From an uncultured bacterium (lineage in GTDB: Bacteria > Babelota > Babeliae > Babelales > Babelaceae): a DNA stretch of 64,000 nucleotides. The stretch covers positions 1,089,903 through 1,153,902 of the forward strand of contig OY970332.1 in assembly GCA_963717435.1 (NCBI GenBank), given 5' to 3'. The translations under genes were made by a program, and so were the position numbers. This document shows positions 1,515 to 31,078 of this stretch, in pieces (within the stretch, counting starts at the first letter, position 1; each line of letters begins with the position of its first letter). The notes below the pieces were generated by a model. It searched no databases. It was not told where the DNA came from and was given only the letters and a program-made list of their open reading frames with translations.

Positions 1515-2885
1515 TTAAGTTGGCATTTGCAGCGTCGCCCATGGACTGGTCGCACTTGCGCTGGTTATCGATGTCGTAGACGTAACCGCCCCTGCATTCA
1601 CACCACTTGTCTGATTTGCCCCTGTTGTTCCATTAAAGGCACAGTTGTTGCTCAAAAAAGCATTGCCACTTGTTCCAGTTTGCAAACTAATGCCATATGA
1701 AGTTGAGGAGGCGTTTCCTGTATTGTTCATAAAATCACAATTTATAATTTGATTGCCAGAGACCGGTGTTCCCGAAACAGCCAAAAACCCTTCAGCAGCC
1801 GAAGCTGGTGAATAATTGAAGATTGCTGCGCAGTTTAAAAAAACATTGCCAAAAGCACTTTGAACGCGAAATCCATTAGTATCTCCTGAAGTACACCTAT
1901 TATTTGAAGATATACAATTTAAAAAAACGCATGAATTGACAATGTCTAACGCAAATCCCACACATTCGTTTGTTGCGCCAAAATTGCCATCTGCTATGCA
2001 GTTCCGGAAAGTGTGACAATTACCAGAAATATTAAAAAACAATGACAAATTCGCTCCTCCTGAATTGTTTAAGACCTGACACCCATCAAGCACGTTATAT
2101 TCAGAATTTGTCGCAAAGCTAAAACCAAAAAGTGCAGTACTCGCTGTACTATTATTTCTGACTATACAATCCAGAAAATAGTTCCCAACAATCGTAGATG
2201 ATATTGAATTCAAATTTATGGCGACAAAATTGTGCGCCGAAATGGAATTGGAATTAATATCCAATCTGATAAAGCTGCAATATGTTGTATCTGTAACTCC
2301 TATTACGGACCAGTTCTGTGCAGGTGCCCCGCCATTTTTGCTAAACACGCAGTCTGAGATCAACAGGTTGCTACAATTTGAAAGACTTAAAGCGAAGTCG
2401 GCAGTCGAAGCGGTGCTACTATTGATTATCTTACAGTTTAATATTGAAGACTCTGTTATATTTGTGCCGCCAGTAATTGTAGACGTCCCATTAAAATCTA
2501 TTCCACGAACCTGACAACTATCTATAATTAAATTCTGAAGAAGCAAATTATTACATCCGGCGTTGGCGACTATACCGGCTCGTGTAAAATTTTTTATATA
2601 ACCATTTGTTATTTTAACATCACCAACACCGGCATCTATCTGGATCCCATTACAACTTGCTGTTGCACTACTTTGGGAAATCTCTCTTCCATTAAGATCA
2701 AGATTTACATAACTTGATTGGATTCGAATTGTCCCATTTGTTGCATCACCAGTTGAAAAAATATCATCGTCCAAAATATAGTTTCCCGAAGTTGTGATTA
2801 ACCAATCAACTGATTTAATTTTAAAATTGCAAGACAAAAATAAAATTAATATTAAAAATCCAAAAAACAATTTTTTAATGCCCAT
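1515..2885 (-). CDS. Secreted right-handed parallel beta-helix repeat protein, paralog 1
   Basis: 456 aa with an N-terminal hydrophobic signal (LFFGFLILILFLS). It has Asn/Ser/Thr/Gly/Cys-rich 20-25-aa turns (NGYIKNFTRAGIVANAGCNNLLLQNLIIDSCQVRGIDF) typical of PbH1/pectate-lyase-like beta-helices. The C-terminus is ...SPWATLQMPT. The first ~150 aa are nearly identical to 2945-4315 and 5549-6964. Confidence 0.8.
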   Translation of the reverse strand: MGIKKLFFGFLILILFLSCNFKIKSVDWLITTSGNYILDDDIFSTGDATNGTIRIQSSYVNLDLNGREISQSSATASCNGIQIDAGVGDVKITNGYIKNFTRAGIVANAGCNNLLLQNLIIDSCQVRGIDFNGTSTITGGTNITESSILNCKIINSSTASTADFALSLSNCSNLLISDCVFSKNGGAPAQNWSVIGVTDTTYCSFIRLDINSNSISAHNFVAINLNSISSTIVGNYFLDCIVRNNSTASTALFGFSFATNSEYNVLDGCQVLNNSGGANLSLFFNISGNCHTFRNCIADGNFGATNECVGFALDIVNSCVFLNCISSNNRCTSGDTNGFRVQSAFGNVFLNCAAIFNYSPASAAEGFLAVSGTPVSGNQIINCDFMNNTGNASSTSYGISLQTGTSGNAFLSNNCAFNGTTGANQTSGVNAGAVTSTTSITSASATSPWATLQMPT

Positions 2886-2944
2886 TACTAACCCTTTTTA
2901 AATTTTTATTCTTACTCTTAAATCACTATTATTAATTTTATTTA

Positions 2945-4315
2945 TTAAGTTGGCATCTGCAACGTTGTCCACGGCACAGTCACGCTTGCGCTCGTTACGG
3001 ACGTTGTCGCACTAACGGCTCCGGAATTAACACCCTGTGTCTGATTTGCTCCCGTTGATCCATTAAAGGCACAAGTATTTCTCAAAAATGCATTGCTTGA
3101 CCCACTGGCAGCAAAATTAATACCATATGAGTTTATAGGTCCTGTATTTCCTATAAATTGACAATCTTTGATTTCATTCATATTAACCGTTCCTGTACTC
3201 AGACTCATGCCCATGGCCGTAGTGACCCTGCCAATATTATAATTTGCCACGCAACGTAAGATCACATTTCCAATTGACGACTGAACTCTGAACCCATCCA
3301 CTTCGAACCCTGCAATATTATTAGAAGACACGCAATCCATGAACACGCTCGCATTAGTATTATTAAGCCAAATCCCAAGCGTCTGGCCGGTGGATTCTGT
3401 GGCGATATTACCATCTGCTATACAACCAACAAATGTGTTTGATATTCCGGGTGATGAAAATCCTACGGTCAGAAGGGCTGAAGAATTGTTTAATGCCTGA
3501 CAATTTTTAAATACATTGTATTCAGAATTTGTTGATGTCTGGAAACCTACAAACTGCCCGTTTGTTTGAGGGACACTATTATTTCTAGCGATACAATCTA
3601 CAAAATAGTTTCCTATAAGTTCCCCAGCTATGGAATTAAGAGATATTCCGTTCATTTGGTGTGCAGTTGAAATTGAATTGGAGTTAATATCTAATCTTAC
3701 AAAACTGCAATAACTTGAATCTGTAAGACCCACTATGGTAAAATTCTGCGCCGGGTTATTGCCGTTGGTGCTGAACTCACAGTCTGAGACCAATATTCTT
3801 GCGCAGTTTGATAAACTCAAAACAAAATCTGCCGTTGTAGATGTGCCACTATTAATTATTTTGCAGTTTGTTATCGAAGACTCTGTGATATTTGTGCCGC
3901 CCCTTATAGTTGACGTTCCGTTAAAATCTATTCCACGAACCTGGCAGCTATCGATAATTAAATTCTGCAAATATAGATTATTGCATCCGGCGTTGGCGAC
4001 AATTCCAGACTGTGTAAAATTTTTTATATAGCCATTAGATATTTTAACATCCCCAACACCAGCATCTATCTGGATCCCATTACAACTTGCTGTTGCACTA
4101 CTTTGGGAAATCTCTCTTCCATTAAGATCAAGATTTACATAACTTGATTGGATTCTAATTGTCCCGTTTGTTGCATCACCAGTTGAAAAAACATCGTCAT
4201 CTAAAATATAATTTCCCGAAGTTGTAATTAACCAGTCGACAGCTTTAATTTTAAAATTGCAAGACAAAAATAAAATTAATATTAAAAATCTAAAAAACAA
4301 TTTTTTAATGCTCAT
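2945..4315 (-). CDS. Secreted parallel beta-helix repeat protein, paralog 2
   Basis: 456 aa with the same signal peptide and N-terminal ~215 aa as paralogs 1 and 4. The centre is divergent. The C-terminus is ...VPWTTLQMPT. Confidence 0.8.
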   Translation of the reverse strand: MSIKKLFFRFLILILFLSCNFKIKAVDWLITTSGNYILDDDVFSTGDATNGTIRIQSSYVNLDLNGREISQSSATASCNGIQIDAGVGDVKISNGYIKNFTQSGIVANAGCNNLYLQNLIIDSCQVRGIDFNGTSTIRGGTNITESSITNCKIINSGTSTTADFVLSLSNCARILVSDCEFSTNGNNPAQNFTIVGLTDSSYCSFVRLDINSNSISTAHQMNGISLNSIAGELIGNYFVDCIARNNSVPQTNGQFVGFQTSTNSEYNVFKNCQALNNSSALLTVGFSSPGISNTFVGCIADGNIATESTGQTLGIWLNNTNASVFMDCVSSNNIAGFEVDGFRVQSSIGNVILRCVANYNIGRVTTAMGMSLSTGTVNMNEIKDCQFIGNTGPINSYGINFAASGSSNAFLRNTCAFNGSTGANQTQGVNSGAVSATTSVTSASVTVPWTTLQMPT

Positions 4316-4355
4316 TGCTATGCCCTTTTTAAATTTTTGCTCTTGCTATTAAAAA

Positions 4356-5507
4356 CTAGTCACTATTTGCTTGTGTAGAGTTATTATAAAACGAATTATG
4401 TCTGAAAATATTGTTATTCATAGTATAAGTATCCAAGTAAGCAAGTCCCGCAAGGCCCTGATTATTATTAAGAATGCAATTCAATGCTGAACTTTGTATC
4501 GCACCATCAAAAAGAATTCCGTAGCCAGCATTTCCGCCTTGATTGGAAAATGCATAGGCCTGGATAATATGTGAAGCGGACTCGGTTCCTGTCATGACAA
4601 AACCCGCGCCAATATTTCCACCAACATTAGATTGTCCATCGCACTGATCAAATACATTACTTATGCCGTCATATGCGCTGAAGCCGATTCCGCATCCAGC
4701 TTGAGAAACATTATTAGAACCAATGCAGTACGCCATGCCTGCGGTTTTTGTGGAATCAAATATAAATCCAGCTGCAGTGGATGTTGAAAGATTATCAAGA
4801 GTGTAATTATTGGAACCGGCGCAATATAATATTTTGCAATCGTTACAATTTTTGAAATAAGCACCTACACCAAACGGCGTTCCGCCATTGTAAAGAAACA
4901 CTGTGTTTGTAAAATGGCAAGTTTCTGAATTATAAAAATATGCACCATAGCCCGAAGCAGTGTAAGAAAAATTATTTGTAAAATAGACATGCACCATATC
5001 GATAAATGTCGTGTTGTTAAAAATACCGCCATAAGCAGCACCGCCGTTAACCCCAAGACTTCCTGAAAATGCACTTTCTGCAATACTTATCCCTGCTATC
5101 CCGTAAGTACTACCATCGCAAATTATGCCACCAGCGGCACAGCTTATAGTAAGAATATTATCGATTGTGATATCGCTGCAACCATCTGCTATGTAGATTC
5201 CATATCCTGTAAAATTTTTAAAAACACCGTTCTTTATAGTTACGTTTGAGATACCCGGAGCCAAAGTTATTCCATTAAAAGCTAGAGCGGTACCAGTTTG
5301 AATATAAGTTCGCTCAGAAAGATCGATTATCACATCCCCTGATGTAATATAACAGTAGCTATCAGAATTGATTGTCGGGTTGTATGGACCGCTTGGACTA
5401 AATCTATAATATCCCGGCTGATTCACGACTGTGGCGATGGACATCCCGAAACAAGATCCATAATTTATTAAGCCCATAATCAATAAGCTTTTTAATCTCA
5501 AATTCAT
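4356..5507 (-). CDS. Secreted beta-helix-like repeat protein, divergent paralog 3
   Basis: 383 aa with a signal peptide (LKSLLIMGLINYGSCFG) and the same N-terminal logic (ITSGDVIIDLSERTY...GITLAPGISNVTIKNGVFKNFTGYGIYI). It has Gly/Asn-rich turns. It lacks the PWxxL C-terminus. Confidence 0.7.
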   Translation of the reverse strand: MNLRLKSLLIMGLINYGSCFGMSIATVVNQPGYYRFSPSGPYNPTINSDSYCYITSGDVIIDLSERTYIQTGTALAFNGITLAPGISNVTIKNGVFKNFTGYGIYIADGCSDITIDNILTISCAAGGIICDGSTYGIAGISIAESAFSGSLGVNGGAAYGGIFNNTTFIDMVHVYFTNNFSYTASGYGAYFYNSETCHFTNTVFLYNGGTPFGVGAYFKNCNDCKILYCAGSNNYTLDNLSTSTAAGFIFDSTKTAGMAYCIGSNNVSQAGCGIGFSAYDGISNVFDQCDGQSNVGGNIGAGFVMTGTESASHIIQAYAFSNQGGNAGYGILFDGAIQSSALNCILNNNQGLAGLAYLDTYTMNNNIFRHNSFYNNSTQANSD

Positions 5508-5548
5508 AATTAGCCCTTATATTATTAGTATTATTATTAATTTATTTA

Positions 5549-6964
5549 TTAAGTTGGCATCTGCAACGTTGTCCACGGCGCGGTCACACTTGCGCTCGTT
5601 ATCGATGTTGTAGCCGTAACAGCACCGGCATTCACCCCCGATGTCTGATTTGCACCCGTTGTTCCATTAAATGCACAAGTTGTCCTCAAATATGCATTAC
5701 TTGACCCTGAAGCGGCAAAACGAATTCCATACGAGTTTGCCGCACTGCTTCCGGTATTTCCAATAAACTCACAATCTTTAATTTCATTAGTGTTAACTGT
5801 TCCACTAAACAAATACATACCTGCTGCGGTAGCATTTGTAGTCGTGCTCAAATTATAATTTGCTACACAACGCAAGAAGACATTCCCTACAGAAGATTGA
5901 ACGAGGAATCCAACCACTAGAGACCCACTCGCGCCTGAAACTATTGAAAAATTATTGGAAGCGACACAATCCATAAAAACACTAGCATTCGCACCGTTAA
6001 CAAGGAATCCAAACGTATTAAGCGCACCAGTATTTGAAGTAGAGTTATTGCCATTTGCTATACAAGCTATGAATGTGTTTGTTATTCCGGGCGTTGAAAA
6101 GCCTACACATTCGGCATTAGCCGAATTATTTAAAGCCTGGCAATTTTTAAATACGTTATATTCAGAATTTGCTGATGTCTGAAAGCCTATAAAGAAGGAG
6201 CTGGCGCTCGCCGCTGGAACCATATTATTTCTTGCTATGCAATCAACAAAATAGTTTCCTATAAGTTCCGCAGCAACTGAATTAAAATATACTCCGTACA
6301 TTTGGTGCGCAGTTGAAATCGAATTAGAGTTAATATCTAATCTTACAAAGCTGCAATAGCTTGAATCTGTGAGAGTCACTATACCAAAATTGGTTGATGT
6401 AGTAGCCCCGCCATTTGTGCTGAACACGCAATCTGAGACAAGTATTCTTGCGCAATTGGATAAACTCAAAACAAAATCTGCAGTTGTTGCCGTACTGCTG
6501 TTAATTATTTTGCAATTGGTTATCGAAGACTCTGTTATATTTGTACCGCCCCTTATAGTTGAAGTTCCATTGAAATCTATTCCACGAACCTGGCAGCCAT
6601 CGATAATTAAATTCTGCAAATATAGATTATTGCACCCGGCGTTGGCGACAATTCCAGACTGTGTAAAATTTTTTATATAGCCATTAGATATTTTAACATC
6701 CCCAACACCAGCATCTATCTGGATCCCATTGCAGCTTGCTGTTGCGCTACTTTGATAGATAACTCTTCCATTAAGATCAAGATTTACATAACTTGATTGG
6801 ATTCTAATTGTCCCGTTTGTTGCATCACCAGTTGAAAAAATATCGTCATCTAAAATATAGTTTCCCGAAGTTGTGATTAACCAATCAACTGATTTAATTT
6901 TAAAACTGTAAGACAAAAATAAAATTAATATTAAAAACCCATATGCTAACTTTTTGCTGTACAT
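5549..6964 (-). CDS. Secreted parallel beta-helix repeat protein, paralog 4
   Basis: 471 aa, closest to paralog 2 along its whole length, with small insertions in the centre. The C-terminus is ...APWTTLQMPT. Confidence 0.8.
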   Translation of the reverse strand: MYSKKLAYGFLILILFLSYSFKIKSVDWLITTSGNYILDDDIFSTGDATNGTIRIQSSYVNLDLNGRVIYQSSATASCNGIQIDAGVGDVKISNGYIKNFTQSGIVANAGCNNLYLQNLIIDGCQVRGIDFNGTSTIRGGTNITESSITNCKIINSSTATTADFVLSLSNCARILVSDCVFSTNGGATTSTNFGIVTLTDSSYCSFVRLDINSNSISTAHQMYGVYFNSVAAELIGNYFVDCIARNNMVPAASASSFFIGFQTSANSEYNVFKNCQALNNSANAECVGFSTPGITNTFIACIANGNNSTSNTGALNTFGFLVNGANASVFMDCVASNNFSIVSGASGSLVVGFLVQSSVGNVFLRCVANYNLSTTTNATAAGMYLFSGTVNTNEIKDCEFIGNTGSSAANSYGIRFAASGSSNAYLRTTCAFNGTTGANQTSGVNAGAVTATTSITSASVTAPWTTLQMPT

Positions 6965-7043
6965 TACTATCGCCTTTTTTTTACTTTATTACTTCACCCA
7001 ATATGTATAAAATTTAATTTATTTTGTAAATAATAAAAAATTT

Positions 7044-8735
7044 TTAACTCGCTATTCTCAAATTTGTCCATGGAGACATAGCGCTACTTACCCTTGACGA
7101 AGGAGACACGCCACCGCCACCACCAGGTGTCATCATTGAACCTACTGGCAAGCCAAACAATTGATTTGCAATCAATGGCGTTGTTACGCCATTTGCATAT
7201 GAAATATTCTGGGTAAAAATATTATTACTATTTAGTGTATAAATTCCATACGAGTTGGCATCCACCGTTGCTGCATTTTGGCTAACCATGCAACCTGAAA
7301 TCACATTGCTTGATGAACTGGCATCTAAGTATATGCCGTAAGCCTGCTGCAGCGACGTGGCTGCCGTATTACTTTTTATTACGCAATTCGATATATTATT
7401 TCCCGTGCTATTAGCTGCACCGGAACTGAGGTATATACCAATAAAAACTTGACCTTGTGCAGTATTTGATTCGATTCTGCAGGACGTAATATCGTTTGCT
7501 TGTGCCTGCGCTATTTGGATCCCATAGAAGGTTGTTGTATGCAGATTACCTGATATCAAACAATCACTAATGAAATTACTATAGCTGAGTGTACCTACCA
7601 CAACAAGGCCGGGGCTAAGACGTTGATTATTTGTAATTAAACATCTTAAGACTGAATTTAATGCTGAGGCTGAAATATAAAAAGCATTTAAAAAACATGT
7701 ATTTCCGCTAATCACGCAATCTTCAAATACATTACCTGCTGTCAGGCCCGACGAAGCAGGGGAAGCTGAACTATTCCCAATTAAAGATACAAATGCTCCC
7801 GATGATGAAGAAGTAGCAATGTTTCCCTGAGCCACACAGTTCCTGACAAAATTATTAGAGCTGTATTGAAGGTTAAAACAAGTAAAATCGACAGGAACAG
7901 TATTGCCAAGAAATTGACAATTTTCAATAAAATTTTGGCTACAGGTATTAGCAGACAGAGAATTCAGCGCTATCCCGTAAGATACGCCTGCGTTGATGAG
8001 ATTATTTCTAATTGAGACATCTGAGATAATATTATTAGAGCAAAGTGATGATACAGTTGTAAGCTGTATGGCATACAGATTACCAGTTGAGCCACCTCCC
8101 GTGTTTTCACTTATATCAATATTTTTTAAAGAACAAGAATTTGAGTCTGTTAAGCCTATAAATGAAAAGCTACTGCTGTTTGTAGTATTATTATTAAACG
8201 TGCAACCTGAAACAAGAACTGATTGGCAGTTTGAAAGATTTATGCCAAAATCTGAAGAGGCATTGGAAAAACAGCCTATAAAGTTGCAGTTATTGATTTG
8301 CGAAGCCGTTATATTTGACCCACCCGTTCCGGTAAAAGTACCAGAAAAATCTATACCCCGTGTCTGGCAATTTGCAAAATCAAGATTTTGCAAAGTAATC
8401 ACACTACAACCTGCCTGAGCTAATACGCCAGCACGGGTAAAGCCAAGTAGCGTCCCGTTTTGTATCGTTACGTTTGTAACACCGGGCGCAATTACGATTC
8501 CGTTACAACTTGCTGTCGCCGTTGTCTGGATCACTGAATATTCGTTCAGGTCCAATGTAACATAACTTGCCTGAATCAAGATCGTTCCGTTAGGATCGCC
8601 GCTTGATGTAATATTTGTTCCAAGTTCGTAGTTACCGGAATGCGTAATTAAAAAATCTGTCGTATGCGTTGTGTTAAAAAAAGATATTAAAAAAAATAAG
8701 CTTAAAATTAATTTATTAAATTCTTTTGCCCGCAT
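7044..8735 (-). CDS. Secreted parallel beta-helix repeat protein, paralog 5 (start trimmed)
   Basis: The ORF track gives 7044-8870, but the first 45 codons read through a GC-rich intergenic repeat. Met46 (MRAKEFNKLILSLFFLISFF, ATG at 8735) begins a normal signal peptide followed by the family N-terminus (DFLITHSGNYELG...YVTLDLNEY). The C-terminus is ...SPWTNLRIAS. Confidence 0.7.
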   Translation of the reverse strand: MRAKEFNKLILSLFFLISFFNTTHTTDFLITHSGNYELGTNITSSGDPNGTILIQASYVTLDLNEYSVIQTTATASCNGIVIAPGVTNVTIQNGTLLGFTRAGVLAQAGCSVITLQNLDFANCQTRGIDFSGTFTGTGGSNITASQINNCNFIGCFSNASSDFGINLSNCQSVLVSGCTFNNNTTNSSSFSFIGLTDSNSCSLKNIDISENTGGGSTGNLYAIQLTTVSSLCSNNIISDVSIRNNLINAGVSYGIALNSLSANTCSQNFIENCQFLGNTVPVDFTCFNLQYSSNNFVRNCVAQGNIATSSSSGAFVSLIGNSSASPASSGLTAGNVFEDCVISGNTCFLNAFYISASALNSVLRCLITNNQRLSPGLVVVGTLSYSNFISDCLISGNLHTTTFYGIQIAQAQANDITSCRIESNTAQGQVFIGIYLSSGAANSTGNNISNCVIKSNTAATSLQQAYGIYLDASSSSNVISGCMVSQNAATVDANSYGIYTLNSNNIFTQNISYANGVTTPLIANQLFGLPVGSMMTPGGGGGVSPSSRVSSAMSPWTNLRIAS

Positions 8736-8807
8736 CCCTCGATACACCCTTCGGGCACTCCCAGGCTTCGTGCAAGACTTCGCCGGGCGCGGGGGGAGGA
8801 GCGGCTT
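8736..8807. repeat. Diverged copy of the GC-rich miniature element family
   Basis: ccctcgatacacccttcgggcactcc...gccgggcgcggggggaggagcgg shares the ccctcgataca core with the copies at 23927, 29571, 41548 and 45382. It is a GC-rich island in AT-rich DNA. Confidence 0.45.
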
Positions 8808-9016
8808 TTGGGAATTATTTTTTTGAGTTTTAACCACCTTGATAAACTTATTAATTGTTTTGCAAATCATTAATTAGTCATCCTTTTTTTGATTTATATC
8901 TTCCTGACTGACTCGGGCAAATTTTGCCAACCTTCTTTGGAGCGGGTTTTTTATTTTTCCCCGCTCCTGCGCATATCATATTCAACTTTTTTACGAGCTT
9001 CAACATATAATCCCTT

Positions 9017-12000
9017 TTAATTAACCGAAATATTTGTCCATGGAGCTGTAACTGCATTTAGGTTCGATATGTCTGTGGATATAGAGGTTGATCCTGAAAT
9101 AAATTGGCTGTATGGATTTGTGTTTTTTGTCGCAATGTTTTGAACAAATGCCGCAATTGTCGCGTTATTTGGCTCTATACGATATCCATAATCATTTCTT
9201 GAAGCTTGGCAGTTTCTTACAGTGTTATTTGCTCCATTCGCGTTTCTTATACCCACTGAACTTGCGGTTACACCAGCATTTGCCGTCTGACCCAATGCAA
9301 TACAGTTATACAACAACGAATCGTTACATGTATTTAAATCGAAACCAAATGCACCAAATAGTCCCGCGGTACTTGATGTTGCATTATTACTATCAGCAAA
9401 GCAACTTATACAAGAGAGCCTTATGGCATTATTGAAACTGAAACCATAAGCAATTGCAGATGCAGATGCACCAGTTGATATGTTATTTACGGCCCGCGAA
9501 TTTATAAATAAGTTGTCATTACAGTTTGCATTCACCAAGAACCCGTATGCCGTTGTCGTTCCACTATTTATGCCAGCAGTACAAGTATCGAATGTATTAC
9601 ATGTGGAAGATGAAACTAAATCGAAACCGTATATGGAACCGTTTGCTACCGTATTTGATCTTGCCGTGCAATATTTGAATGAACTGTTTGTTACAGCATT
9701 CATTAAGAAGCCAGAGCTTCCCGAGTTGTCGCACGCGTCAACAACAAGCATATCCACTTTAACTGAGTTATTAACACTTACTACTGTTAGGGTTAATGCA
9801 TTTGAAGTCAGACCGTTTAGATTAACGCGACAGGTATTGATTTTCAAATCAGAAGCATAGTTAATAAACAGTGGGCTATTTGCACCGTTGGCTGTTGAAC
9901 AAGAGAAAATATCGCAATTGTTAATTAGACCCTCGTTCAATGTACCAGTTCCGGACGTACCATTAAGGGCGATTCCACCAGTTGCGCAAGATGTTATTGT
10001 TGTGGCCAAAATCTTATAGCGATCAACGTTTGACTGCAGCGTCAAACCTGTTCCTGTAAATCCATTAATTCTGCCACCCGTTACTATAACATCGGTGTAA
10101 TTTGAGCTAACAACAACACCATTAACGCCCGTGCTTGCATTTGTTTGTCTTAAGGTGAAGCATGAAAGATCGAGTGTCACATACGAAGAGTTTATTGTTA
10201 TCGCTGTTGTGTTATTTGCGCCAGTAAATGATATATCTGAACCCAATCTATAGACGCCCGAAGTTGTTATCACGTACGGAGTTGAACCTGAACCAAAATT
10301 TGCTTGGGTTATTATTGTCGCCGCGCACTCATCCGCATTTAATGTTGCAAGTATTGTCCAGGTTGCCGCAAAGTCGTTTACTACTATAGTTTGTAAAGCT
10401 GCAATACTTGTAAATGTATTTAAAACGTTTGTATTTATTGTATTTAATACTGTGAATGTATTTGCGGTGCTTATATTTGCTATCGCCGTGAAAGTATTTA
10501 GCACGTTCGTGTTTATTGTCGCCAGTATCGTCCACGTATTATTAAAGTCTTGCTGAGTTTGCGCACAACACGCTGTCACTGAGTTTTTCAAGTCAGCGAT
10601 TGCTGTAAATGTATTTAGCACGTTGGTGTTTATTGTATTTAATACCGTAAATGTTGCCGCATTGCTTAGATTTGCGAGAATCGTCCACGTTGCTGCAAAG
10701 TCTGAAATTATTGTGTTATTGATAGCCGAAAGTATCGTCCATGTGCTATTGAAATCGTTAACAACTGTATTTTGCAGAGTTGCAATACTTGTGAAAGTAT
10801 TTAGCACGTTGGTATTTATTGTCGCCAATATTGTCCATGTATTATTAAAGTCTTGCTGCGTTTGCGCACAACATGCTGTCACAGTGTTTTGTAATTCTGC
10901 AATTGCTGTAAATGTATTTACGCTGCTTATATTTGCAAGTATCGTCCATGTGCTATTGAAATCGTTAACAACTGTATTTTGCAGAGTTGCGATACTCGTG
11001 AAAGTATTTAGCACGTTGGTATTTATTGTCGCCAATATTGTCCATGTATTATTAAAGTCTTGCTGCGTTTGCGCACAACACGCTGTCACTGAATTTTTCA
11101 AGTCAGCGATTGCTGTAAATGTATTTACGCTGCTTATATTTGCAAGTATCGTCCATGTGCTATTGAAATCGTTAACAACTGTATTTTGCAGAGTTGCGAT
11201 ACTCGTGAAAGTATTTAGCACGTTGGTATTTATTGTCGCCAGTATTGTCCATGTATTATTAAAGTCTTGCTGCGTTTGCGCACAACACGCTGTCACTGAA
11301 TTTTTTAAATCTGCGATTGCTGTAAATGTATTTACGCTGCTTATATTTGCAAGTATTGTCCATGTGCTATTAAAGTCTGAAACTATCGTGTTTTCGATAG
11401 CAGCTAATATTGTCCAAGTACTATTGAAATCGTTAACAACTGTATTTTGCAGATTCGCAATACTCGTGAAAGTATTTAGCACGTTGGTATTTATTGTCGC
11501 CAATATTGTCCATGTATTATTAAAGTCTTGCTGTGTTTGCGCACAACATGCTGTCACAGTGTTTTGTAATTCTGCAATTGCTGTAAATGTATTTACGCTG
11601 CTTATATTTGCAAGTATCGTCCATGTGCTATTAAAGTCTGAAACTATCGTGTTTAATATATTTGCTTCTATTGTCCAAGTACTATTGAAATCGTTAACAA
11701 CTGTATTTTGCAGATTCGCAATACTCGTGAAAGTATTTAGCACGTTCGTGTTTATTGTCGCCAATATTGTCCATGTATTATCAAAATCCTGCTGGGTTTG
11801 GGCACAACATGCTGTTAACGTGTTCTGTAATTCTGCAATTGCTGTAAATGTATTTACGCTGCTTATATTTGCAAGTATCGTCCATGTGCTATTAAAGTCT
11901 GAAACTATCGTGTTTAATATATTTGCTTCTATTGTCCAAGTACTATTGAAATCGTTAACAACTGTATTTTGCAGATTCGCAATACTCGTGAAAGTATTTA

Positions 12001-14569
12001 GCACGTTCGTGTTTATTGTCGCCAATATTGTCCATGTATTATCAAAATCCTGCTGAGTTTGCGCACAACATGCTGTTAACGTGTTTTGCAACTCTGCGAT
12101 TGCTGTAAATGTATTTACGCTGCTTATATTTGCAAGTATCGTCCATGTGCTATTAAAGTCGTTAACAACTGTATTTTGCAACTCTGCGATACTCGTGAAA
12201 GTATTTAGCACATTGGTATTTATTGTCGCCAATATTGTCCATGTATTATCAAAATCCTGCTGCGTTTGCGCACAACATGCTGTTAACGTGTTCTGTAATT
12301 CTGCAATTGCCGTAAACGTACCCGACAGGTCCACAACGGCTGTTGTCGTTGATATTGAAGCTTGTATCTGTGCTAATATTGTCCAGGTATTATTAAAGTC
12401 TTGCTGGGTTTGTGCACAACATGCTGTCACCGTCTCTTGTAACTCTGCAATCGCCGTAAATGTATTTAACACGTTTACATTTATCGTATTTAATACGGTA
12501 AATGTAGAACCCACTGACAGGTTATTTATCTCGTTACTTATAGCTGCAAGTATTGTCCATGTATTATTAAAGTCTTGTTGAGTTTGTTCACAACATGCTG
12601 TTACTGTGTTTTGTAACTCTGCAATTGCTGTAAATGTATTTAACACGTTTACATTTATCGTGTTCAATACTGTAAATGTCGAACCTATTGATAGGTTATT
12701 TATCTCATTACTTATAGCTGCAAGTATTGTCCATGTATTATTAAAGTCTTGTTGAGTTTGTGCACAACATGCTGTTACCGTGTTTTGCAACTCTGCAATT
12801 GCTGTAAATGTGCCCGATAGGTCCACAACTGCTGTTGTTGTTGATATTGAAGACTGTATCTGTGCAAGTATTGTCCATGTACTATTAAAATCCGTAACTA
12901 TCGTATTTTCGATCGCAGCTAATATTGTCCAAGTAGCATTGAAGTCGCTTTGTGTCTGAGCGCAACATGCCGTTACAGTGTTTTGTAATTCTGCAATTGC
13001 TGTAAACGTACCCGACAAATCTACGACAGCTGTTGTTGTTGCTATCGAAGATTGTATATGTGCAAGTATCGTCCATGTACTATTAAAATCTGTAACTATC
13101 GTATTTTCAATCGCAGCTAATATTGTCCAGGTATTATCAAAATCTTGTTGCGTTTGGGCACAACATGCTGTCACCGTGTTTTGCAACTCCGCAATTGCTG
13201 TAAATGTATTCACGCTGCTTATATTTGCAAGTATCGTCCATGTGCTATTAAAATCCGTAACTATCGTGTTTTCAATCGCAGCCAATATCGTCCAGGTATT
13301 ATCAAAATCTTGCTGAGTTTGAGCACAACATGCTGTCACCGTGTTTTGCAACTCCGCAATTGCTGTAAATGTATTCACGCTGCTTATATTTGCAAGTATC
13401 GTCCATGTGCTATTAAAATCCGTAATTATCGTGTTTTCAATCGCAGCCAGTATCGTCCAGGTATTATCAAAATCTTGCTGAGTTTGAGCACAACATGCCG
13501 TCAGCGTATTTTGTAACTCCGCAATTGCTGTAAATGTGGCATCAAATTGTGCACCAAATGTTATAACTATAGTCGGTGTTGTTAAAGTTGATAAAATCTC
13601 ATTTAAGAGAGAAAACGTTGTATTAAAATTATTTTGAGTTTGAACGCAACATGTTGTTACAGTATTTGTAAGATCAGCTAAAATTGTAAATGTGCTATTA
13701 AATTCTGTTGTTACTAAAGCAATTAAAGTATTTAATAACCCTATTATTGTACTTATTCCCTGGCATTGGGTTGAACTTATTGATGCCTGAATATTTAAAA
13801 GCAGCGCCAAAATATCAACGCCACCAACACAAAATTTTCCATTAACAACTAAATTGCCGCAAATTCTTAAAGAGTCATTAATTATTAATGCGCCAAGTCT
13901 TTTTATTTTGGCACCGCGTCTTGTTGCCGCCAAATCATCTGATGTTGAAATAGAGTTTTTATTAACTTCGTTTTGATATTCTTCTAATTTTGCCTGAATA
14001 CTCTTTAAATCTTGAATTAAGTTTTTCGCATCTTCTGAAGATAACCCGTTATCAAAAACCGCAGAGCCTACAGATTCATTGGATTCACCATATCTCTGAT
14101 GCATACTTTCGGTAAACTTTAAGCAACAATCTGATATTGTCTTTTCAATTAAAGAAATCTGATTTTCAAGTGGACTCAGGTCATACACAGACGCTATAGA
14201 ATATGACATGTTCCTAAATTCAGATGGATCCATTTGGTGCACATTTGATATATAATCTACGGCGCCTTCTGGGTATTCATTTTTGAGCTCTTTATAAGAT
14301 TCCAGATCACGGGTTAATTTTTCCAGAGCACCATTATCTCTTGCCGCTCTTTCTATTGCTTGCGCAAGTTGGGCCATCTTTTCTTCATCGCCTAACTGGC
14401 CACTTTCAGAAAAATTATCTTCACAAAATTCGGTTATTAAATCTAGCGGACGCCCGTGAGATAAGCCAAACGGATCAGAATTTTCTGGACAAAAACTATT
14501 GAACCAAAAAACAGAAATAAAAAATATAAGATAAACAGACAACTTGAAATGCTTCTTACGTATATTCAT
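9017..14569 (-). CDS. Giant secreted fibre-like protein: signal peptide, coiled-coil-like N-region, ~1,125-aa Cys-Cys module array, C-terminal beta-helix domain
   Basis: Uninterrupted 1,850-aa ORF with an N-terminal hydrophobic segment (LSVYLIFFISVFWFNSF). Charged helical stretches follow (EEKMAQLAQAIERAARDNGALEKLTRDLESYKELKNE). Residues ~286-1411 are modular repeats. Residues ~1412-1850 are homologous to the neighbouring beta-helix paralogs (VITTSGVYRLGSDISF...SSYVTLDLSCFTL). The C-terminus is ...APWTNISVN. Confidence 0.85.
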   Translation of the reverse strand: MNIRKKHFKLSVYLIFFISVFWFNSFCPENSDPFGLSHGRPLDLITEFCEDNFSESGQLGDEEKMAQLAQAIERAARDNGALEKLTRDLESYKELKNEYPEGAVDYISNVHQMDPSEFRNMSYSIASVYDLSPLENQISLIEKTISDCCLKFTESMHQRYGESNESVGSAVFDNGLSSEDAKNLIQDLKSIQAKLEEYQNEVNKNSISTSDDLAATRRGAKIKRLGALIINDSLRICGNLVVNGKFCVGGVDILALLLNIQASISSTQCQGISTIIGLLNTLIALVTTEFNSTFTILADLTNTVTTCCVQTQNNFNTTFSLLNEILSTLTTPTIVITFGAQFDATFTAIAELQNTLTACCAQTQQDFDNTWTILAAIENTIITDFNSTWTILANISSVNTFTAIAELQNTVTACCAQTQQDFDNTWTILAAIENTIVTDFNSTWTILANISSVNTFTAIAELQNTVTACCAQTQQDFDNTWTILAAIENTIVTDFNSTWTILAHIQSSIATTTAVVDLSGTFTAIAELQNTVTACCAQTQSDFNATWTILAAIENTIVTDFNSTWTILAQIQSSISTTTAVVDLSGTFTAIAELQNTVTACCAQTQQDFNNTWTILAAISNEINNLSIGSTFTVLNTINVNVLNTFTAIAELQNTVTACCEQTQQDFNNTWTILAAISNEINNLSVGSTFTVLNTINVNVLNTFTAIAELQETVTACCAQTQQDFNNTWTILAQIQASISTTTAVVDLSGTFTAIAELQNTLTACCAQTQQDFDNTWTILATINTNVLNTFTSIAELQNTVVNDFNSTWTILANISSVNTFTAIAELQNTLTACCAQTQQDFDNTWTILATINTNVLNTFTSIANLQNTVVNDFNSTWTIEANILNTIVSDFNSTWTILANISSVNTFTAIAELQNTLTACCAQTQQDFDNTWTILATINTNVLNTFTSIANLQNTVVNDFNSTWTIEANILNTIVSDFNSTWTILANISSVNTFTAIAELQNTVTACCAQTQQDFNNTWTILATINTNVLNTFTSIANLQNTVVNDFNSTWTILAAIENTIVSDFNSTWTILANISSVNTFTAIADLKNSVTACCAQTQQDFNNTWTILATINTNVLNTFTSIATLQNTVVNDFNSTWTILANISSVNTFTAIADLKNSVTACCAQTQQDFNNTWTILATINTNVLNTFTSIATLQNTVVNDFNSTWTILANISSVNTFTAIAELQNTVTACCAQTQQDFNNTWTILATINTNVLNTFTSIATLQNTVVNDFNSTWTILSAINNTIISDFAATWTILANLSNAATFTVLNTINTNVLNTFTAIADLKNSVTACCAQTQQDFNNTWTILATINTNVLNTFTAIANISTANTFTVLNTINTNVLNTFTSIAALQTIVVNDFAATWTILATLNADECAATIITQANFGSGSTPYVITTSGVYRLGSDISFTGANNTTAITINSSYVTLDLSCFTLRQTNASTGVNGVVVSSNYTDVIVTGGRINGFTGTGLTLQSNVDRYKILATTITSCATGGIALNGTSGTGTLNEGLINNCDIFSCSTANGANSPLFINYASDLKINTCRVNLNGLTSNALTLTVVSVNNSVKVDMLVVDACDNSGSSGFLMNAVTNSSFKYCTARSNTVANGSIYGFDLVSSSTCNTFDTCTAGINSGTTTAYGFLVNANCNDNLFINSRAVNNISTGASASAIAYGFSFNNAIRLSCISCFADSNNATSSTAGLFGAFGFDLNTCNDSLLYNCIALGQTANAGVTASSVGIRNANGANNTVRNCQASRNDYGYRIEPNNATIAAFVQNIATKNTNPYSQFISGSTSISTDISNLNAVTAPWTNISVN
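10336..13712 (-). repeat. In-frame coding tandem/modular repeat array inside the giant gene
   Basis: TACC(A/E)QTQ occurs 15 times plus one degenerate TTCCVQTQ. Modules are 54-100 aa. In the 3' part the unit is exactly 207 nt (cgctgcttatatttgcaag at 10921, 11128, 11335). Confidence 0.9.
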
Positions 14570-29710: not shown

Positions 29711-31078
29711 TCAGACAAAAATTTCATGTTCGATACGCTCAAGCTCTGCGCCCCATGACGCATCGGTATCTTTGTAATAAGATATTTTTTCAAGAGCATG
29801 AATAACTGTAGAGTGATCTTTGCGACACCAAAAGGTCCCGATATCTTTAAGAGATTTATCTGTTAATTTTTTCATAAAATACATGGCCACATGTCGTGCC
29901 AAAGTTACATTCTTATTGCGACTTGAAGATCTAAGATCTTCTAAATTATATTGATAATATCTAGCAACTGTCTGCGCAATTCTTTGCAAATCAGCTGTTC
30001 CGGGTTTGGTCTCTTTTGGATTGGTTCCCAAAACTTTTTGGGCAAGTTTGAGACTTATAGATTCTGAAGTTAAAGAAGAATAGGCTATTAGTCGTATGAG
30101 CATCCCCTCAAGCTCTCTGACATTAGAAAAAACGCGCGATGCTATAAAATATGCAACGTCATCTTCTATTTTTACTTCCTGGAATTCGGCCTTCTTTTTC
30201 AAAATTGCAACTCTGGTTTCAAGTGGCGGCGCTTGTATATCAACAATCAAGCCACCTTCTAGTCGTGATCTTAATCTTCCAGCCAAGCCTATAATGTCTT
30301 CGGGCAAAGCGTCACTTGAAAATACAATCTGTTTTTTGGATTCTTGCAAACTATTAAATATATGAAAAAAAGCTTCTTGAGTTTGCTCTTTGTTTGATAA
30401 AAACTGTATATCATCAATAATAAGTGCGTCGACGTTTCTATATTTAGATTCAAAAAAATTTGTTTTATCAAATCTTATGGCATTAATAAATTCGTTAACA
30501 AATCTATCCGCAGTTTGATACAACACCTGTACGCTTTTATCTTTCAATTTTAAATCATGATAAACGGCTCTTAACAAATGCGTTTTTCCAAGACCCGATC
30601 CACCATAAATAAACAGTGGGTTATACAAAGTTCCTGGACCCTCAACCACTGCACGTGCAGCAGAGTAAGCAAGTTTATTATTGGGGCCAACTATGAAATT
30701 ATCAAAATTAAATTCTGTTGCAGATAAATTCTTGTTATTATGCAAAACGATTTTATTTGAGACTATTGGCCTTGCTGGAATTATCGATGGCTCTTGTGAA
30801 ATTTTTAGGTGATTTATATTAACCGACTCACCTTCAACAAATATTATAACTTTGACTTGCGACTCGTTAAGCAACCTGCTCAAATGGATTTGAAAAAGCT
30901 CCATATATTTTGACGTGAGCCAGTCTCTTACAAATGGATTAGGCGCGCAAAGATAGACCACCTTTGAATGGGCGTCCCAATGATTTAAAGAAACCGCTTT
31001 GAACCACGTTTCAACAACGTTGCTACCGCTTTCTTCCTTAACAATTTTTAAGAATTCTTGCCAAATAATTTGAAACAC
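29711..31078 (-). CDS. dnaA: Chromosomal replication initiator protein DnaA
   Basis: 455 aa with Walker A GGSGLGKTHL, Walker B LIIDDIQFL and a C-terminal DNA-binding domain (RHVAMYFMKKLT...KDHSTVIHA). Confidence 0.92.
   Translation of the reverse strand: MFQIIWQEFLKIVKEESGSNVVETWFKAVSLNHWDAHSKVVYLCAPNPFVRDWLTSKYMELFQIHLSRLLNESQVKVIIFVEGESVNINHLKISQEPSIIPARPIVSNKIVLHNNKNLSATEFNFDNFIVGPNNKLAYSAARAVVEGPGTLYNPLFIYGGSGLGKTHLLRAVYHDLKLKDKSVQVLYQTADRFVNEFINAIRFDKTNFFESKYRNVDALIIDDIQFLSNKEQTQEAFFHIFNSLQESKKQIVFSSDALPEDIIGLAGRLRSRLEGGLIVDIQAPPLETRVAILKKKAEFQEVKIEDDVAYFIASRVFSNVRELEGMLIRLIAYSSLTSESISLKLAQKVLGTNPKETKPGTADLQRIAQTVARYYQYNLEDLRSSSRNKNVTLARHVAMYFMKKLTDKSLKDIGTFWCRKDHSTVIHALEKISYYKDTDASWGAELERIEHEIFV

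What the first reader, a model, noticed from the sequence alone, without database searches (positions are those of the whole stretch)
10336..13712. Giant fibre-like protein: 3.4-kb in-frame modular array of 16 modules, each with a vicinal Cys-Cys
Seen: ORF 9017-14569 (1,850 aa) has a signal peptide and ~250 aa with charged helical stretches. Residues ~286-1411 are made entirely of shuffled short motifs:
- [A] NTFTAIAELQNTVTACCAQTQQ
- [B] DFNxTWTILAxI
- [C] ENTIVxDFNSTWTILANISSV
- [D] NTNVLNTFTSIAxLQNTVVN
- [E] QSSISTTTAVVDLSGT
- [F] SNEINNLSxGSTFTVLNTINVNVL

TACC(A/E)QTQ occurs 15 times plus one degenerate TTCCVQTQ. Module length varies 54-100 aa with presence or absence of C-F. In the 3' part the unit is exactly 207 nt (the same 19-mer at 10921, 11128, 11335). 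A ~440-aa beta-helix domain homologous to the neighbouring paralogs follows.

Inference: an N-terminal anchor or coiled coil, a long repetitive stalk and a C-terminal beta-helix head is the architecture of phage tail fibres/tailspikes and trimeric adhesins. Regularly spaced Cys-Cys pairs in an exported protein suggest inter-chain disulfide stapling or metal binding. I do not recognise the module as any described repeat family. Near-identical units predict copy-number (fibre length) variation.
Basis: partly seen in the sequence, partly recalled or inferred. Interest (0 to 1): 0.88.

Follow-up and report, generated by a model that had tools for sequence, protein, structure and literature searches.

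The report
Cysteine-laddered coiled-coil fibre protein of Dependentiae
A 1,850-residue secreted protein from a protist-infecting type of bacterium most likely forms a roughly 170-nm helical rope carrying 16 evenly placed cysteine pairs and ending in a sugar-binding-type head, and it belongs to a rare, undescribed family that probably serves as host-attachment fibres.

Summary
ORF 9017-14569, on the minus strand, encodes 1,850 aa. Residues 286-1411 are an in-frame modular array with 16 T[AT]CC[AEV]QTQ motifs. Every stalk cysteine sits in a Cys-Cys pair.

The protein belongs to a rare family: 196 of 1.84 billion representative proteins match the unit. True members were found only in Dependentiae/Babeliales. 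The shared architecture is signal peptide, variable N-terminus, Cys-Cys stalk, then a head that is usually a right-handed beta-helix.

The ancestral unit is a 25-mer, DFxGTFTxLxDIKNTLTxCC. Four lines of evidence point to a continuous alpha-helix in a non-heptad coiled coil:
- Hydrophobic periodicity is 3.54-3.63 residues.
- Anchor spacings are quantised at whole numbers of helical turns.
- Gly and Pro are nearly absent.
- AlphaFold2 models the unit as one helix (pLDDT 94.6).

The two Cys straddle the hydrophobic seam, which suits rings of interchain disulfides. That role is inferred, not shown.

Differences between modules are mostly synonymous, so the array is translated, constrained and not an artefact. 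It is not phage-derived and not a trimeric autotransporter. No Pfam, NCBIfam or PDB family covers the window's module. Copy-number variation could not be tested. I rate it a new variant of a known kind, the fibrous adhesin.

The parts
9017..14569 (-). Whole gene, 1,850 codons plus stop. An AAGGG ribosome-binding-like sequence lies about 8 nt upstream of the ATG.
   Evidence: An identical protein, P0001, is held in NCBI/ENA on a 1,198,203-bp contig.
14489..14569 (-). aa 1-27: signal-peptide-like N-terminus (MNIRKKHFK, then 17 hydrophobic residues, then FNSFC).
   Evidence: Read from the translation. All 50 homologs begin the same way. No predictor was run.
13715..14488 (-). aa 28-285: non-repeat, charged N-terminal region. 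It contains the 17th Cys-Cys (aa 148-149) in a DLSP...SLIEKTISDCC motif that resembles the D[IV]SPxxLxGLxL...LPQGLINCC motif of homologs. It is the presumed cell-proximal base.
   Evidence: No phmmer match to homologs, no Pfam hit, motif comparison by eye.
10337..13714 (-). aa 286-1411: the stalk, about 61 helical sub-units in 16 modules. It is 0.5% Gly and 0.1% Pro with a hydrophobic period of 3.63 residues. As a continuous helix at about 0.15 nm per residue it would be about 170 nm long.
10553..13657 (-). Span from the first to the last of the 16 T[AT]CC[AEV]QTQ motifs. Codon pairs are TGTTGT 14 times and TGTTGC twice.
9113..10324 (-). aa 1416-1819: right-handed parallel beta-helix head, pLDDT mostly above 90.
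   Evidence: AlphaFold2. Foldseek matches are AlgG and AlgE4 alginate epimerases, phage depolymerases and tailspikes, and the PfbA adhesin, plus giant-virus beta-helix proteins at E about 1e-12.
9020..9112 (-). aa 1820-1850: low-confidence C-terminal tail ending ...APWTNISVN. A related [WF]x[NT][LIV]x[IV] ending occurs in the neighbouring paralogs and in some homologs.
1515..8870 (-). Five tandem paralogs (7044-8870, 5549-6964, 4356-5507, 2945-4315, 1515-2885). Each is a signal peptide plus a beta-helix head without a Cys-Cys stalk.

Best explanation
The gene encodes an exported fibrous protein of an obligately host-associated Dependentiae (Babeliales-like) bacterium.

After a signal peptide and a ~260-aa base region, residues 286-1411 form one essentially uninterrupted alpha-helix. 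This helix associates with identical chains in a parallel coiled coil of non-heptad periodicity (3.6-3.67 residues per turn, built from 11-, 14-, 18-, 22- and 25-residue elements). The result is a rod about 170 nm long that holds a right-handed beta-helix head, of the glycan-binding or glycan-cleaving type, away from the cell.

Every 48-101 residues a Cys-Cys pair occupies the two positions that straddle the hydrophobic seam. In an n-stranded parallel bundle this places 2n thiols in one layer. Cys(i) of one chain can then bond Cys(i+1) of its neighbour and close a ring of n interchain disulfides. Sixteen such rings would turn the rope into a covalent ladder that resists mechanical and chemical stress outside the host, and that could be loosened by reduction inside it.

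The likely role is attachment to, or processing of, the surface glycans of the protist host.

Shown here: the sequence anatomy, family membership, helical periodicity, the beta-helix fold and purifying selection.

Inferred: homo-oligomerisation and its stoichiometry, disulfide formation, surface display and the adhesin role.
For: Family:
- 50 homologs of 620-1,640 aa, nearly all with 2-17 Cys-Cys pairs.
- The named ones are Dependentiae or Babeliales, apart from one partial MAG protein (P0027) that its source labels Gammaproteobacteria.
- A profile of the unit finds only 196 proteins among 1.84 billion representatives.
- A degenerate DNA pattern scan of 185,579 species genomes finds multi-Cys-Cys ORFs only in Dependentiae/Babeliales MAGs, often as tandem paralogs.

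Alpha-helix and coiled coil:
- The hydrophobic Fourier peak lies at 3.56-3.63 residues in this protein and five of six homologs (3.48 in the sixth).
- The hydrophobic moment is largest at 100 degrees per residue.
- Gly is 0.5% and Pro 0.1% over 1,126 aa.
- AlphaFold2 on the 38-aa unit, with an in-register 83-sequence alignment, gives one helix over residues 2-37. pLDDT is 94.6 and all five models exceed 92.
- Across 174 family proteins the spacing between conserved T[FWY]T aromatics is quantised at 11, 14, 18, 22, 25, 29, 32 and 36 residues, which is 3 to 10 helical turns. About 80% of spacings between 10 and 40 residues fall on these values, against about 29% expected.
- The repeat's chance matches to Pfam families are mostly to alpha-helical or coiled-coil families such as KxDL, ATG17, apolipoprotein and DUF1664.

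Cys register:
- On the helical wheel of the family alignment the two Cys lie at -53 and +49 degrees from the centre of the hydrophobic face.

Selection:
- Same-length adjacent modules differ at 60 synonymous and 20 non-synonymous codons, at 84-97% DNA identity.

Head:
- The beta-helix is confident, with Foldseek probability 1.0 to polysaccharide epimerases, lyases, tailspikes and a streptococcal adhesin.

Modularity:
- Other family members carry a WD40 propeller after the beta-helix region.
- Five others (P0009, P0015, P0016, P0050, P0051) have no Beta_helix hit and end in a shared GWEE[LR]F-type C-terminus.
- This is the mosaic pattern seen in adhesive fibres such as the Bdellovibrio MAT fibres (PMC10769870).
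Against: - AlphaFold2 on the last 172 stalk residues joined to the head gave pLDDT of about 30 and no stable secondary structure for the stalk, using a 13-sequence alignment in which the repeats are hard to register.
- Short peptides are often modelled as helices anyway, so one search is not decisive.
- The composition is rich in Thr, Asn, Ile and Val, and Chou-Fasman beta propensity slightly exceeds alpha (1.12 against 1.00).
- In the window protein ten anchor spacings are 12 residues, which is off-phase locally. They are compensated only at module level: 55, 66, 69 and 87 aa correspond to 15, 18, 19 and 24 turns.
- Some family members carry single Cys instead of Cys-Cys (for example P0040 and P0145). 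Single Cys cannot close rings in a trimer.
- No anchor domain, no oligomer model, no Dsb system and no expression data were available.
- Many homolog units have Gly or Pro at one fixed position (DFxG, DLSP), which could mark helix breaks.
Confidence: 0.55

Rival explanations
1. Same fold, different job for the cysteines. The Cys-Cys layers are not interchain disulfides. They are either reduced hydrophobic core residues, or thiolate sites that bind a metal or metalloid on the bundle axis, or intrachain vicinal disulfides acting as redox sensors.
For: - The Cys pairs lie on the core-facing side of the helix.
- Single-Cys variants of the unit exist in relatives, which cannot all pair in an odd-numbered bundle.
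- From general knowledge: Cys layers in designed three-stranded coiled coils bind Hg, Cd, As and Pb.
Against: - An exported protein in an oxidising compartment would normally oxidise paired thiols.
- The strict pairing (32 of 32 stalk Cys) and the straddling geometry are what a ring of interchain bonds needs.
- No other ligand residues such as His, Asp or Glu are conserved next to the pair. Positions -1 and +2 are A/T/E and A.
Confidence: 0.2
2. The protein is a released enzyme or effector rather than a cell-anchored fibre. The beta-helix would be a polysaccharide lyase, epimerase or hydrolase acting on host or prey glycans, and the stalk would be a spacer or multimerisation module.
For: - The best PDB structural matches are enzymes: AlgG, AlgE4 and phage capsule depolymerases.
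- No recognisable membrane, peptidoglycan or outer-membrane anchor was found.
- Five neighbouring paralogs are signal peptide plus head only.
Against: - A 1,126-residue rod is an expensive spacer for a soluble enzyme in a genome of about 1.2 Mb.
- The family has a base region shared by several members, and exchangeable heads (WD40 additions, non-beta-helix C-termini), as in adhesive fibres.
- Catalytic residues were not identified.
Confidence: 0.2
3. The stalk is not a homo-oligomeric coiled coil. It would instead be either an intramolecular helical-hairpin or solenoid rod, or a beta-rich fibre of the triple beta-spiral or beta-solenoid kind seen in viral fibres.
For: - The composition is rich in Thr, Asn and beta-branched residues, and beta propensity is at least equal to alpha.
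- AlphaFold2 did not fold the long stalk segment.
- Gly or Pro recurs at one unit position in many homologs.
Against: - Anchor spacings advance in steps of 3-4 residues (11, 14, 18, 22, 25, 29...), which is an alpha-helical signature and not multiples of a solenoid coil.
- The 3.6-residue periodicity dominates the roughly 2-residue harmonic.
- There are practically no Gly or Pro residues for turns in 1,126 aa.
- The unit is modelled as a helix at pLDDT 94.6.
- Sub-units of 12-18 aa are too short for helical hairpins.
Confidence: 0.12
4. It is a phage or prophage tail fibre or tailspike gene, or the repeat array is an assembly artefact.
For: - The beta-helix head resembles tailspikes in fold.
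- Long near-identical repeats are hard to assemble.
Against: - Neighbours are ftsW, pepA, a trxB-trx fusion, dnaA and pgk, with no phage genes.
- PHROGs gives only a summed-repeat artefact.
- tblastn against 50,697 phage genomes gives no match.
- The unit pattern is absent from IMG/VR apart from 2 chance hits.
- The array is in frame for 3.4 kb.
- Modules differ by many, mainly synonymous, substitutions, so they cannot be collapsed or duplicated reads.
Confidence: 0.03

Closest known systems
Trimeric autotransporter adhesins (YadA, BadA, SadA, UspA1)
   Same: They are very long surface fibres built of head plus coiled-coil stalk. The stalks use non-heptad periodicities, have polar residues (Asn, Thr) in and near the core, and are mosaics of short repeats. 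Lengths are of the order of 100-250 nm.
   Different: The polarity is inverted: here the signal peptide and base are N-terminal and the head is C-terminal. There is no YadA-type C-terminal beta-barrel anchor and no TAA head, neck or stalk Pfam domains. TAAs have no regular Cys-Cys layers. The phylum is different.
Phage tailspikes and capsule depolymerases (P22, Sf6, HK620, CBA120 TSPs, Klebsiella phage K64-1 S2-4)
   Same: They have a right-handed parallel beta-helix of similar size placed after an N-terminal attachment part. Foldseek gives probability 1.0 and E-values of 1e-5 to 1e-3.
   Different: There is no sequence similarity, no phage context and no 1,100-residue helical stalk in tailspikes. 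The better BFVD matches are beta-helix proteins of giant viruses of protists, not of phages.
Bdellovibrio MAT (mosaic adhesive trimer) fibres (PMC10769870)
   Same: They are signal peptide, cell-proximal N-terminal domain, long fibre and exchangeable C-terminal tip. They occur as a multi-paralog repertoire in a bacterium that must recognise and enter other cells.
   Different: MAT stalks are intertwined trimeric beta-prisms and beta-helices with a conserved ~130-aa beta-rich N-domain, and many have an S74 chaperone-protease. Here the stalk is alpha-helical with Cys-Cys layers and none of those domains was detected.
Interchain cystine knots of trimeric extracellular proteins (collagen III C-terminal Cys-Cys knot, collagen IV CB3 knot; Cys rings of COMP and matrilin coiled coils)
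   Same: Two closely spaced cysteines per chain give a closed set of interchain disulfides that covalently lock a parallel homo-oligomer. Three interchain bonds form a knot in collagen IV CB3 (PMC10404678). The collagen III, COMP and matrilin examples are from general knowledge.
   Different: Those proteins have a single knot at one end of the rod. Here the motif recurs 16 times inside the rod, and up to 37 times in the relative P0065. Disulfide formation is not demonstrated here.
Pfam PF04513 Baculo_PEP_C (baculovirus polyhedron envelope protein, C-terminus)
   Same: Several homologs (P0004, P0021, P0012, P0015, P0065) match it above the gathering score, at 41-66 bits against a cut-off of 38. 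The match covers about 100 residues of stalk.
   Different: The window protein does not match: E is 0.8-3.5 and the score 8-10 bits. The match may reflect shared coiled-coil-like composition rather than common descent. No Cys-Cys logic is known for that family.
Right-handed or straight coiled coils with hendecad-type periodicity (tetrabrachion stalk, YadA right-handed segment)
   Same: Periodicity is above 3.5 residues: 3.63 for the stalk overall, and 55- and 66-aa modules equal 15 and 18 turns. Pairs of adjacent residues both face the core.
   Different: This is a resemblance in periodicity only. Handedness and strand number are unknown here, and there is no sequence relationship.

Membership tests
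Unnamed Dependentiae Cys-Cys stalk fibre family (defined here) | Repeated unit matching the profile DFxxTFTxLxDIKxTLTxCCAxxxxxF, with vicinal Cys | tested here: met
   The window has 16 units in register with the family consensus. Homologs score E = 1e-88 to 1e-4 against the stalk.
Unnamed Dependentiae Cys-Cys stalk fibre family (defined here) | Architecture of signal peptide, variable N-terminus, stalk and C-terminal head (usually a beta-helix) | tested here: met
Trimeric autotransporter adhesins | C-terminal YadA-like beta-barrel membrane anchor | tested here: not met
   No such Pfam or NCBIfam hit. The C-terminus is a beta-helix.
Trimeric autotransporter adhesins | Obligate homotrimer | not testable with these tools
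   Only monomer AlphaFold2 was available.
Phage tailspike / tail fibre | Encoded in a phage or prophage, with sequence relatives in phages | tested here: not met
Phage tailspike / tail fibre | Right-handed parallel beta-helix receptor-binding or depolymerase domain | tested here: met
   AlphaFold2 pLDDT above 90 and Foldseek probability 1.0
Pectate-lyase-like right-handed beta-helix superfamily (Pfam Beta_helix PF13229) | Match to PF13229 or the fold | tested here: met
   The fold criterion is met. The window protein itself gives no PF13229 hit at E of 0.1 or below. Of its paralogs, 7044-8870 scores 66 bits and 4356-5507 scores 27.1 bits, above the 25.9-bit cut-off. The other three score 23.4-25.7 bits, just below it. 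Homologs also match.
Pfam Baculo_PEP_C (PF04513) | Score at or above the gathering threshold of 38 bits | tested here: not met
   Window stalk segments score 8-10 bits, E 0.8-3.5. The criterion is met only by some homologs.
Bdellovibrio MAT fibres | Conserved ~130-aa beta-rich N-terminal domain and a trimeric beta-prism stalk | tested here: inconclusive
   The stalk here is alpha-helical by periodicity and AlphaFold2, which differs. No MAT sequence was available for a direct comparison of the N-domain.
Alpha-helical coiled coil (structural class) | Continuous amphipathic helix with a conserved phase of core residues | tested here: met
Alpha-helical coiled coil (structural class) | Two or more helices wound together | not testable with these tools
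   No multimer prediction or experiment was possible.

The most novel reading that the evidence does not exclude
The family would be a previously unrecognised kind of bacterial surface fibre: a parallel non-heptad coiled coil hundreds of residues long, covalently 'laddered' by periodic rings of interchain disulfides made from vicinal Cys-Cys layers. It would be specific to Dependentiae. It would act as a redox-switchable host-attachment organelle, rigid outside the protist host and dismantled by reduction after entry. That would be functionally analogous to the disulfide-cross-linked envelope of chlamydial elementary bodies.
Probability: 0.25. Interest if true: 0.8.

Novelty: new variant of a known kind. 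Interest (0 to 1): 0.6.

Why it matters
Dependentiae (TM6) are widespread obligate parasites of protists, and almost nothing is known about how they recognise and enter hosts. The genome paper I checked, on Chromulinavorax, lists ankyrin effectors but no fibres.

A phylum-restricted family of very long exported rods with exchangeable heads, present as tandem paralog arrays, is an obvious candidate for the host-range determinant.

For structural biology, a natural coiled coil with 16 regularly spaced vicinal-cysteine core layers would be unusual. Relatives carry up to 37 such layers. It would also be a directly testable model for covalent stapling, or metal binding, of helical bundles. The 25-residue unit is short enough to study as a peptide.

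Tried and rejected
- Exact look-up of the gene's contig failed for the window protein, for a neighbour and for P0001. Cluster look-up gave no accession or name.
- With P0001 it found no relative in genome contigs and only one 34%-identical locus in metagenomes (L048). Strain-level copy-number variation therefore could not be examined.
- PDB sequence searches with the whole protein and with the unit profile gave nothing useful.
- AlphaFold2 of stalk plus head as a monomer left the stalk unmodelled.
- Pfam, NCBIfam and PHROGs hits on the repeat (KxDL, Tos1_N, KA1_BRSK, ZapG, phrog_17652) have no individually significant stretch. I rejected them as summed low-level repeat matches.
- The gap-length histogram of BLAST alignments to homologs showed an excess at 7 residues but no clean 11-residue peak. 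It is too noisy to use.
- Two literature searches for Dependentiae surface structures returned nothing relevant.
- I considered a bacterial N-glycosylation reading of the 24 D/E-x-N-x-S/T sequons. The Asn is present in only about 31% of family units, so I did not adopt it.
Full report
OBSERVATION

The ORF at 9017-14569 is real, lies on the minus strand and encodes 1,850 aa. Residues 286-1411 (window 10337-13714) form an uninterrupted in-frame array. It holds 14 TACCAQTQ, one TACCEQTQ and one TTCCVQTQ, with Cys-Cys to Cys-Cys spacings of 48-101 aa. All 32 cysteines of this region are in Cys-Cys pairs, against about 0.9 pairs expected from the Cys frequency. Tandem Repeats Finder reports periods of 207, 261, 174, 198 and 165 nt at 82-96% identity. 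The region has no Met, Arg or Tyr. It is 0.5% Gly and 0.1% Pro, and 20% Thr and 14% Asn.

IS IT A REAL, TRANSLATED GENE?

Modules of equal length are 84-97% identical at the DNA level. In adjacent pairs they differ at 60 synonymous and 20 non-synonymous codons. That pattern means purifying selection on the protein. It also excludes a collapsed or duplicated assembly, and it shows the array is not a very recent expansion. The identical protein (P0001) is held in NCBI/ENA on a 1,198,203-bp contig.

The surrounding window is ordinary bacterial chromosome: ftsW, pepA, a thioredoxin-reductase-thioredoxin fusion, dnaA, pgk, an HtrA-like protease, IMPDH, four tRNAs. The named closest relatives of its PGK are Babeliales/Dependentiae at 44-48% identity. 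The organism is therefore a divergent member of that phylum of obligate protist parasites.

THE FAMILY

A search with the stalk returned 50 homologs of 620-1,640 aa besides the protein itself. Nearly all have a signal-peptide-like N-terminus, 2-17 vicinal Cys-Cys pairs at regular spacings and a C-terminal Beta_helix domain. Where a source names the organism it is Dependentiae or Babeliales, apart from one partial MAG protein (P0027) labelled Gammaproteobacteria.

Aligning the context of 392 Cys-Cys pairs from the homologs gives a 25-residue consensus unit, [DN]F-x-G-T-F-T-x-L-x-D-I-K-N-T-L-T-x-C-C-A-x-[LI]-x-x. The window protein's NTFTAIAELQNTVTACCAQTQQ is this unit without the DF prefix. Its motifs B, C and D are copies truncated before the Cys-Cys segment. 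The 'shuffled motifs' are thus full and truncated versions of one unit.

A profile of the unit (alignment A2, 83 sequences) finds only 196 proteins at E of 1e-3 or below among 1.84 billion representatives. Of these, 123 score at or below 1e-10. The longest is 2,924 aa.

A degenerate DNA pattern for [DE][IL][KQ]NT[LVI]TxCC was scanned over one genome for each of 185,579 species. It hit long ORFs with repeated Cys-Cys pairs only in Dependentiae/Babeliales MAGs, with two and four tandem paralogs in L008 and L014. All hits in other taxa were short chance ORFs. The same scan of IMG/VR gave two chance hits.

Some members add a WD40 propeller after the beta-helix region. Five others have no Beta_helix hit and share a GWEE[LR]F-type C-terminus. 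The head end of the family is therefore variable.

The N-terminal 285 aa are not detectably conserved. A DLSP...CC motif there resembles one in several homologs.

STRUCTURE OF THE STALK

Several independent observations point to a continuous alpha-helix with a conserved phase, that is, a coiled-coil strand.

(i) The Fourier spectrum of hydrophobic residues peaks at 3.63 residues in this protein and at 3.56-3.60 in five of six homologs (3.48 in the sixth). The roughly 2-residue harmonic is weaker. The hydrophobic moment is largest at 100 degrees per residue.

(ii) Gly and Pro are practically absent over 1,126 residues.

(iii) With the in-register alignment A2, AlphaFold2 models the 38-residue unit as one helix over residues 2-37, running straight through Cys-Cys and the following DFNN. 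pLDDT is 94.6 and all five models exceed 92.

(iv) In 174 family proteins the distance between successive conserved T[FWY]T aromatics is quantised at 11, 14, 18, 22, 25, 29, 32 and 36 residues. These correspond to 3, 4, 5, 6, 7, 8, 9 and 10 turns of 3.6 residues. About 80% of all spacings between 10 and 40 residues fall on these values, where about 29% would be expected. A solenoid or beta-spiral would give multiples of one coil length, not steps of 3-4 residues.

(v) In the window protein the module lengths of 55, 66, 58, 69 and 87 aa correspond to 15, 18, 16, 19 and 24 turns at 3.62-3.67 residues per turn. This is hendecad-like, implying straight or slightly right-handed supercoiling.

Against this:
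- AlphaFold2 on the last 172 stalk residues attached to the head gave pLDDT of about 30 for the stalk.
- The composition is rich in beta-branched residues.
- Ten local spacings in the window protein are 12 residues.

I take the stalk to be alpha-helical with fair confidence. Its oligomeric state is unknown. As a helix it would be about 170 nm long (1,126 residues at about 0.15 nm each; inference).

THE CYS-CYS PAIRS

On the helical wheel of A2 (best period 3.54) the core positions are F-17, T-14, L-10, I-7, L-3, C+1, [IL]+4, F+8, T+11, L+15 and L+18. The two cysteines lie at -53 and +49 degrees, on either side of the centre of the hydrophobic face.

Two adjacent residues straddling the seam is the geometry in which, in a parallel n-stranded bundle, residue i of one chain faces residue i+1 of its neighbour. 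A Cys-Cys layer can then close a ring of n interchain disulfides. This is the logic of the interchain cystine knots that lock collagen trimers: three interchain bonds in collagen IV CB3 (PMC10404678), and the Cys-Cys knot of collagen III from general knowledge.

Here it would recur 16 times along the rod. This is inference; nothing here shows oxidation. Relatives with single Cys per unit fit less well and keep a metal-binding or plain core role open.

THE HEAD

Residues 1416-1819 are modelled with pLDDT mostly above 90 as a right-handed parallel beta-helix.

Foldseek against the PDB gives alginate C5-epimerases AlgG and AlgE4 (TM up to 0.6 on the target), Klebsiella phage capsule depolymerases, tailspikes of Sf6, HK620 and CBA120, and the pneumococcal adhesin PfbA. 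E-values are 7e-6 to 1e-3 at about 10-14% identity.

Against predicted viral structures, the best matches are beta-helix proteins of giant viruses of protists (Klosneuvirus, Hyperionvirus, Barrevirus, E about 1e-12 to 1e-10). These score ahead of phage tailspikes.

The fold is typical of glycan-binding or glycan-cleaving proteins. No catalytic residues were assigned. Five tandem paralogs downstream (1515-8870) are signal peptide plus head without a stalk.

WHAT IT IS NOT

- It is not a trimeric autotransporter. There is no beta-barrel anchor, and the polarity is inverted.
- It is not phage-derived. There are no phage neighbours, no PHROG family, no tblastn match in 50,697 phage genomes, and the unit is absent from IMG/VR.
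- It is not a member of any curated repeat family. Pfam and NCBIfam hits on the window protein are summed-repeat artefacts without a significant stretch, and PDB sequence searches are empty.
- One caveat: several homologs exceed the gathering score of Pfam Baculo_PEP_C, at 41-66 bits against 38. The window stalk scores only 8-10 bits. Whether that reflects homology or coiled-coil-like composition is open.

MECHANISM PROPOSED

The protein is exported via its signal peptide. The base region stays near the cell by an unknown anchor. Identical chains zip into a parallel non-heptad coiled coil. Periodic Cys-Cys layers are oxidised to interchain rings, giving a covalently laddered rod of about 170 nm. 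The distal beta-helix heads bind or cut host surface glycans.

The multi-paralog repertoire with exchangeable heads parallels the Bdellovibrio MAT fibres, which have beta stalks (PMC10769870). A redox-dependent loosening inside the host, by analogy with chlamydial cysteine-rich envelope proteins (general knowledge), is speculative.

The Chromulinavorax genome paper does not mention such proteins, and two other literature searches found no description of them.

VERDICT

This is a new variant of a known kind: a fibrous adhesin with a coiled-coil stalk and beta-helix head. It belongs to a rare, phylum-restricted, uncharacterised family whose distinctive feature is the periodic vicinal-cysteine layer.

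Noticed in passing
window 1515-8870 (minus strand): There are five tandem paralogs consisting only of a signal peptide and the beta-helix head, with no stalk. 1515-2885 and 2945-4315 are near-identical in their first 90 residues. Together with the giant gene they form a six-gene head-domain cluster.
   Followed up: partly
model m23122beea8da (aa 1416-1819; window 9113-10324): The best structural matches among predicted viral proteins are beta-helix proteins of giant viruses of protists (Klosneuvirus, Hyperionvirus, Barrevirus, Edafosvirus) at E = 1e-12 to 1e-9. These are clearly better than phage tailspikes. This may reflect gene exchange or convergence between two kinds of protist parasite.
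   Followed up: no
window 10337-13714 (stalk): The stalk holds 24 copies of the extended bacterial N-glycosylation sequon D/E-x-N-x-S/T (DFNNT, DFNST), against 2.5 ± 1.5 in shuffles. The Asn is present in only about 31% of family units, so this is probably a by-product of the repeat.
   Followed up: partly
family alignment A2, unit positions -12, -8, -4, -2, +13: Thr and Asp at predicted solvent-exposed helix positions are 85-95% conserved across the family. That is unusual for a coiled-coil surface. It might indicate lateral fibre packing, O-glycosylation or a binding face.
   Followed up: no
window 9020-9112 and the C-termini of the paralogs at 1515-8870: The giant protein and four of the five paralogs end in a similar motif: PWTNISVN, PWTNLRIAS, PWTTLQMPT or PWATLQMPT (4356-5507 does not). 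A looser [WFY]x[NT][LIVA]x[IVLAM] ending occurs in 36 of 175 family proteins. It could be a terminal capping strand or a sorting signal.
   Followed up: partly
window 19944-21389 (minus strand) and 49505-50434 (plus strand): There are two thioredoxin-reductase-type genes. The first is fused to a C-terminal thioredoxin domain. Thiol-redox enzymes lie close to a gene with 17 Cys-Cys pairs, but no functional link was shown.
   Followed up: no
window 29711-31078 (minus strand): dnaA lies here, so the window probably lies near the chromosomal replication origin. Cumulative GC skew reaches a local minimum around 36-38 kb.
   Followed up: no
window 42266-43417 (plus strand); homologs P0022 and P0044: The window encodes a stand-alone seven-bladed WD40 beta-propeller protein. 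WD40 propellers are also fused behind the beta-helix in two Cys-Cys stalk family members.
   Followed up: no
window 10623-12056 (plus strand), antisense to the stalk: A 477-aa ORF, and several shorter ones, run antisense through the repeat array. They are most likely by-products of the low-complexity repeat and were not examined further.
   Followed up: no
homologs P0004, P0012, P0015, P0021, P0065: Stalks of these relatives match Pfam Baculo_PEP_C (baculovirus polyhedron envelope protein) above its curated threshold. It is unclear whether this is homology or compositional similarity.
   Followed up: partly
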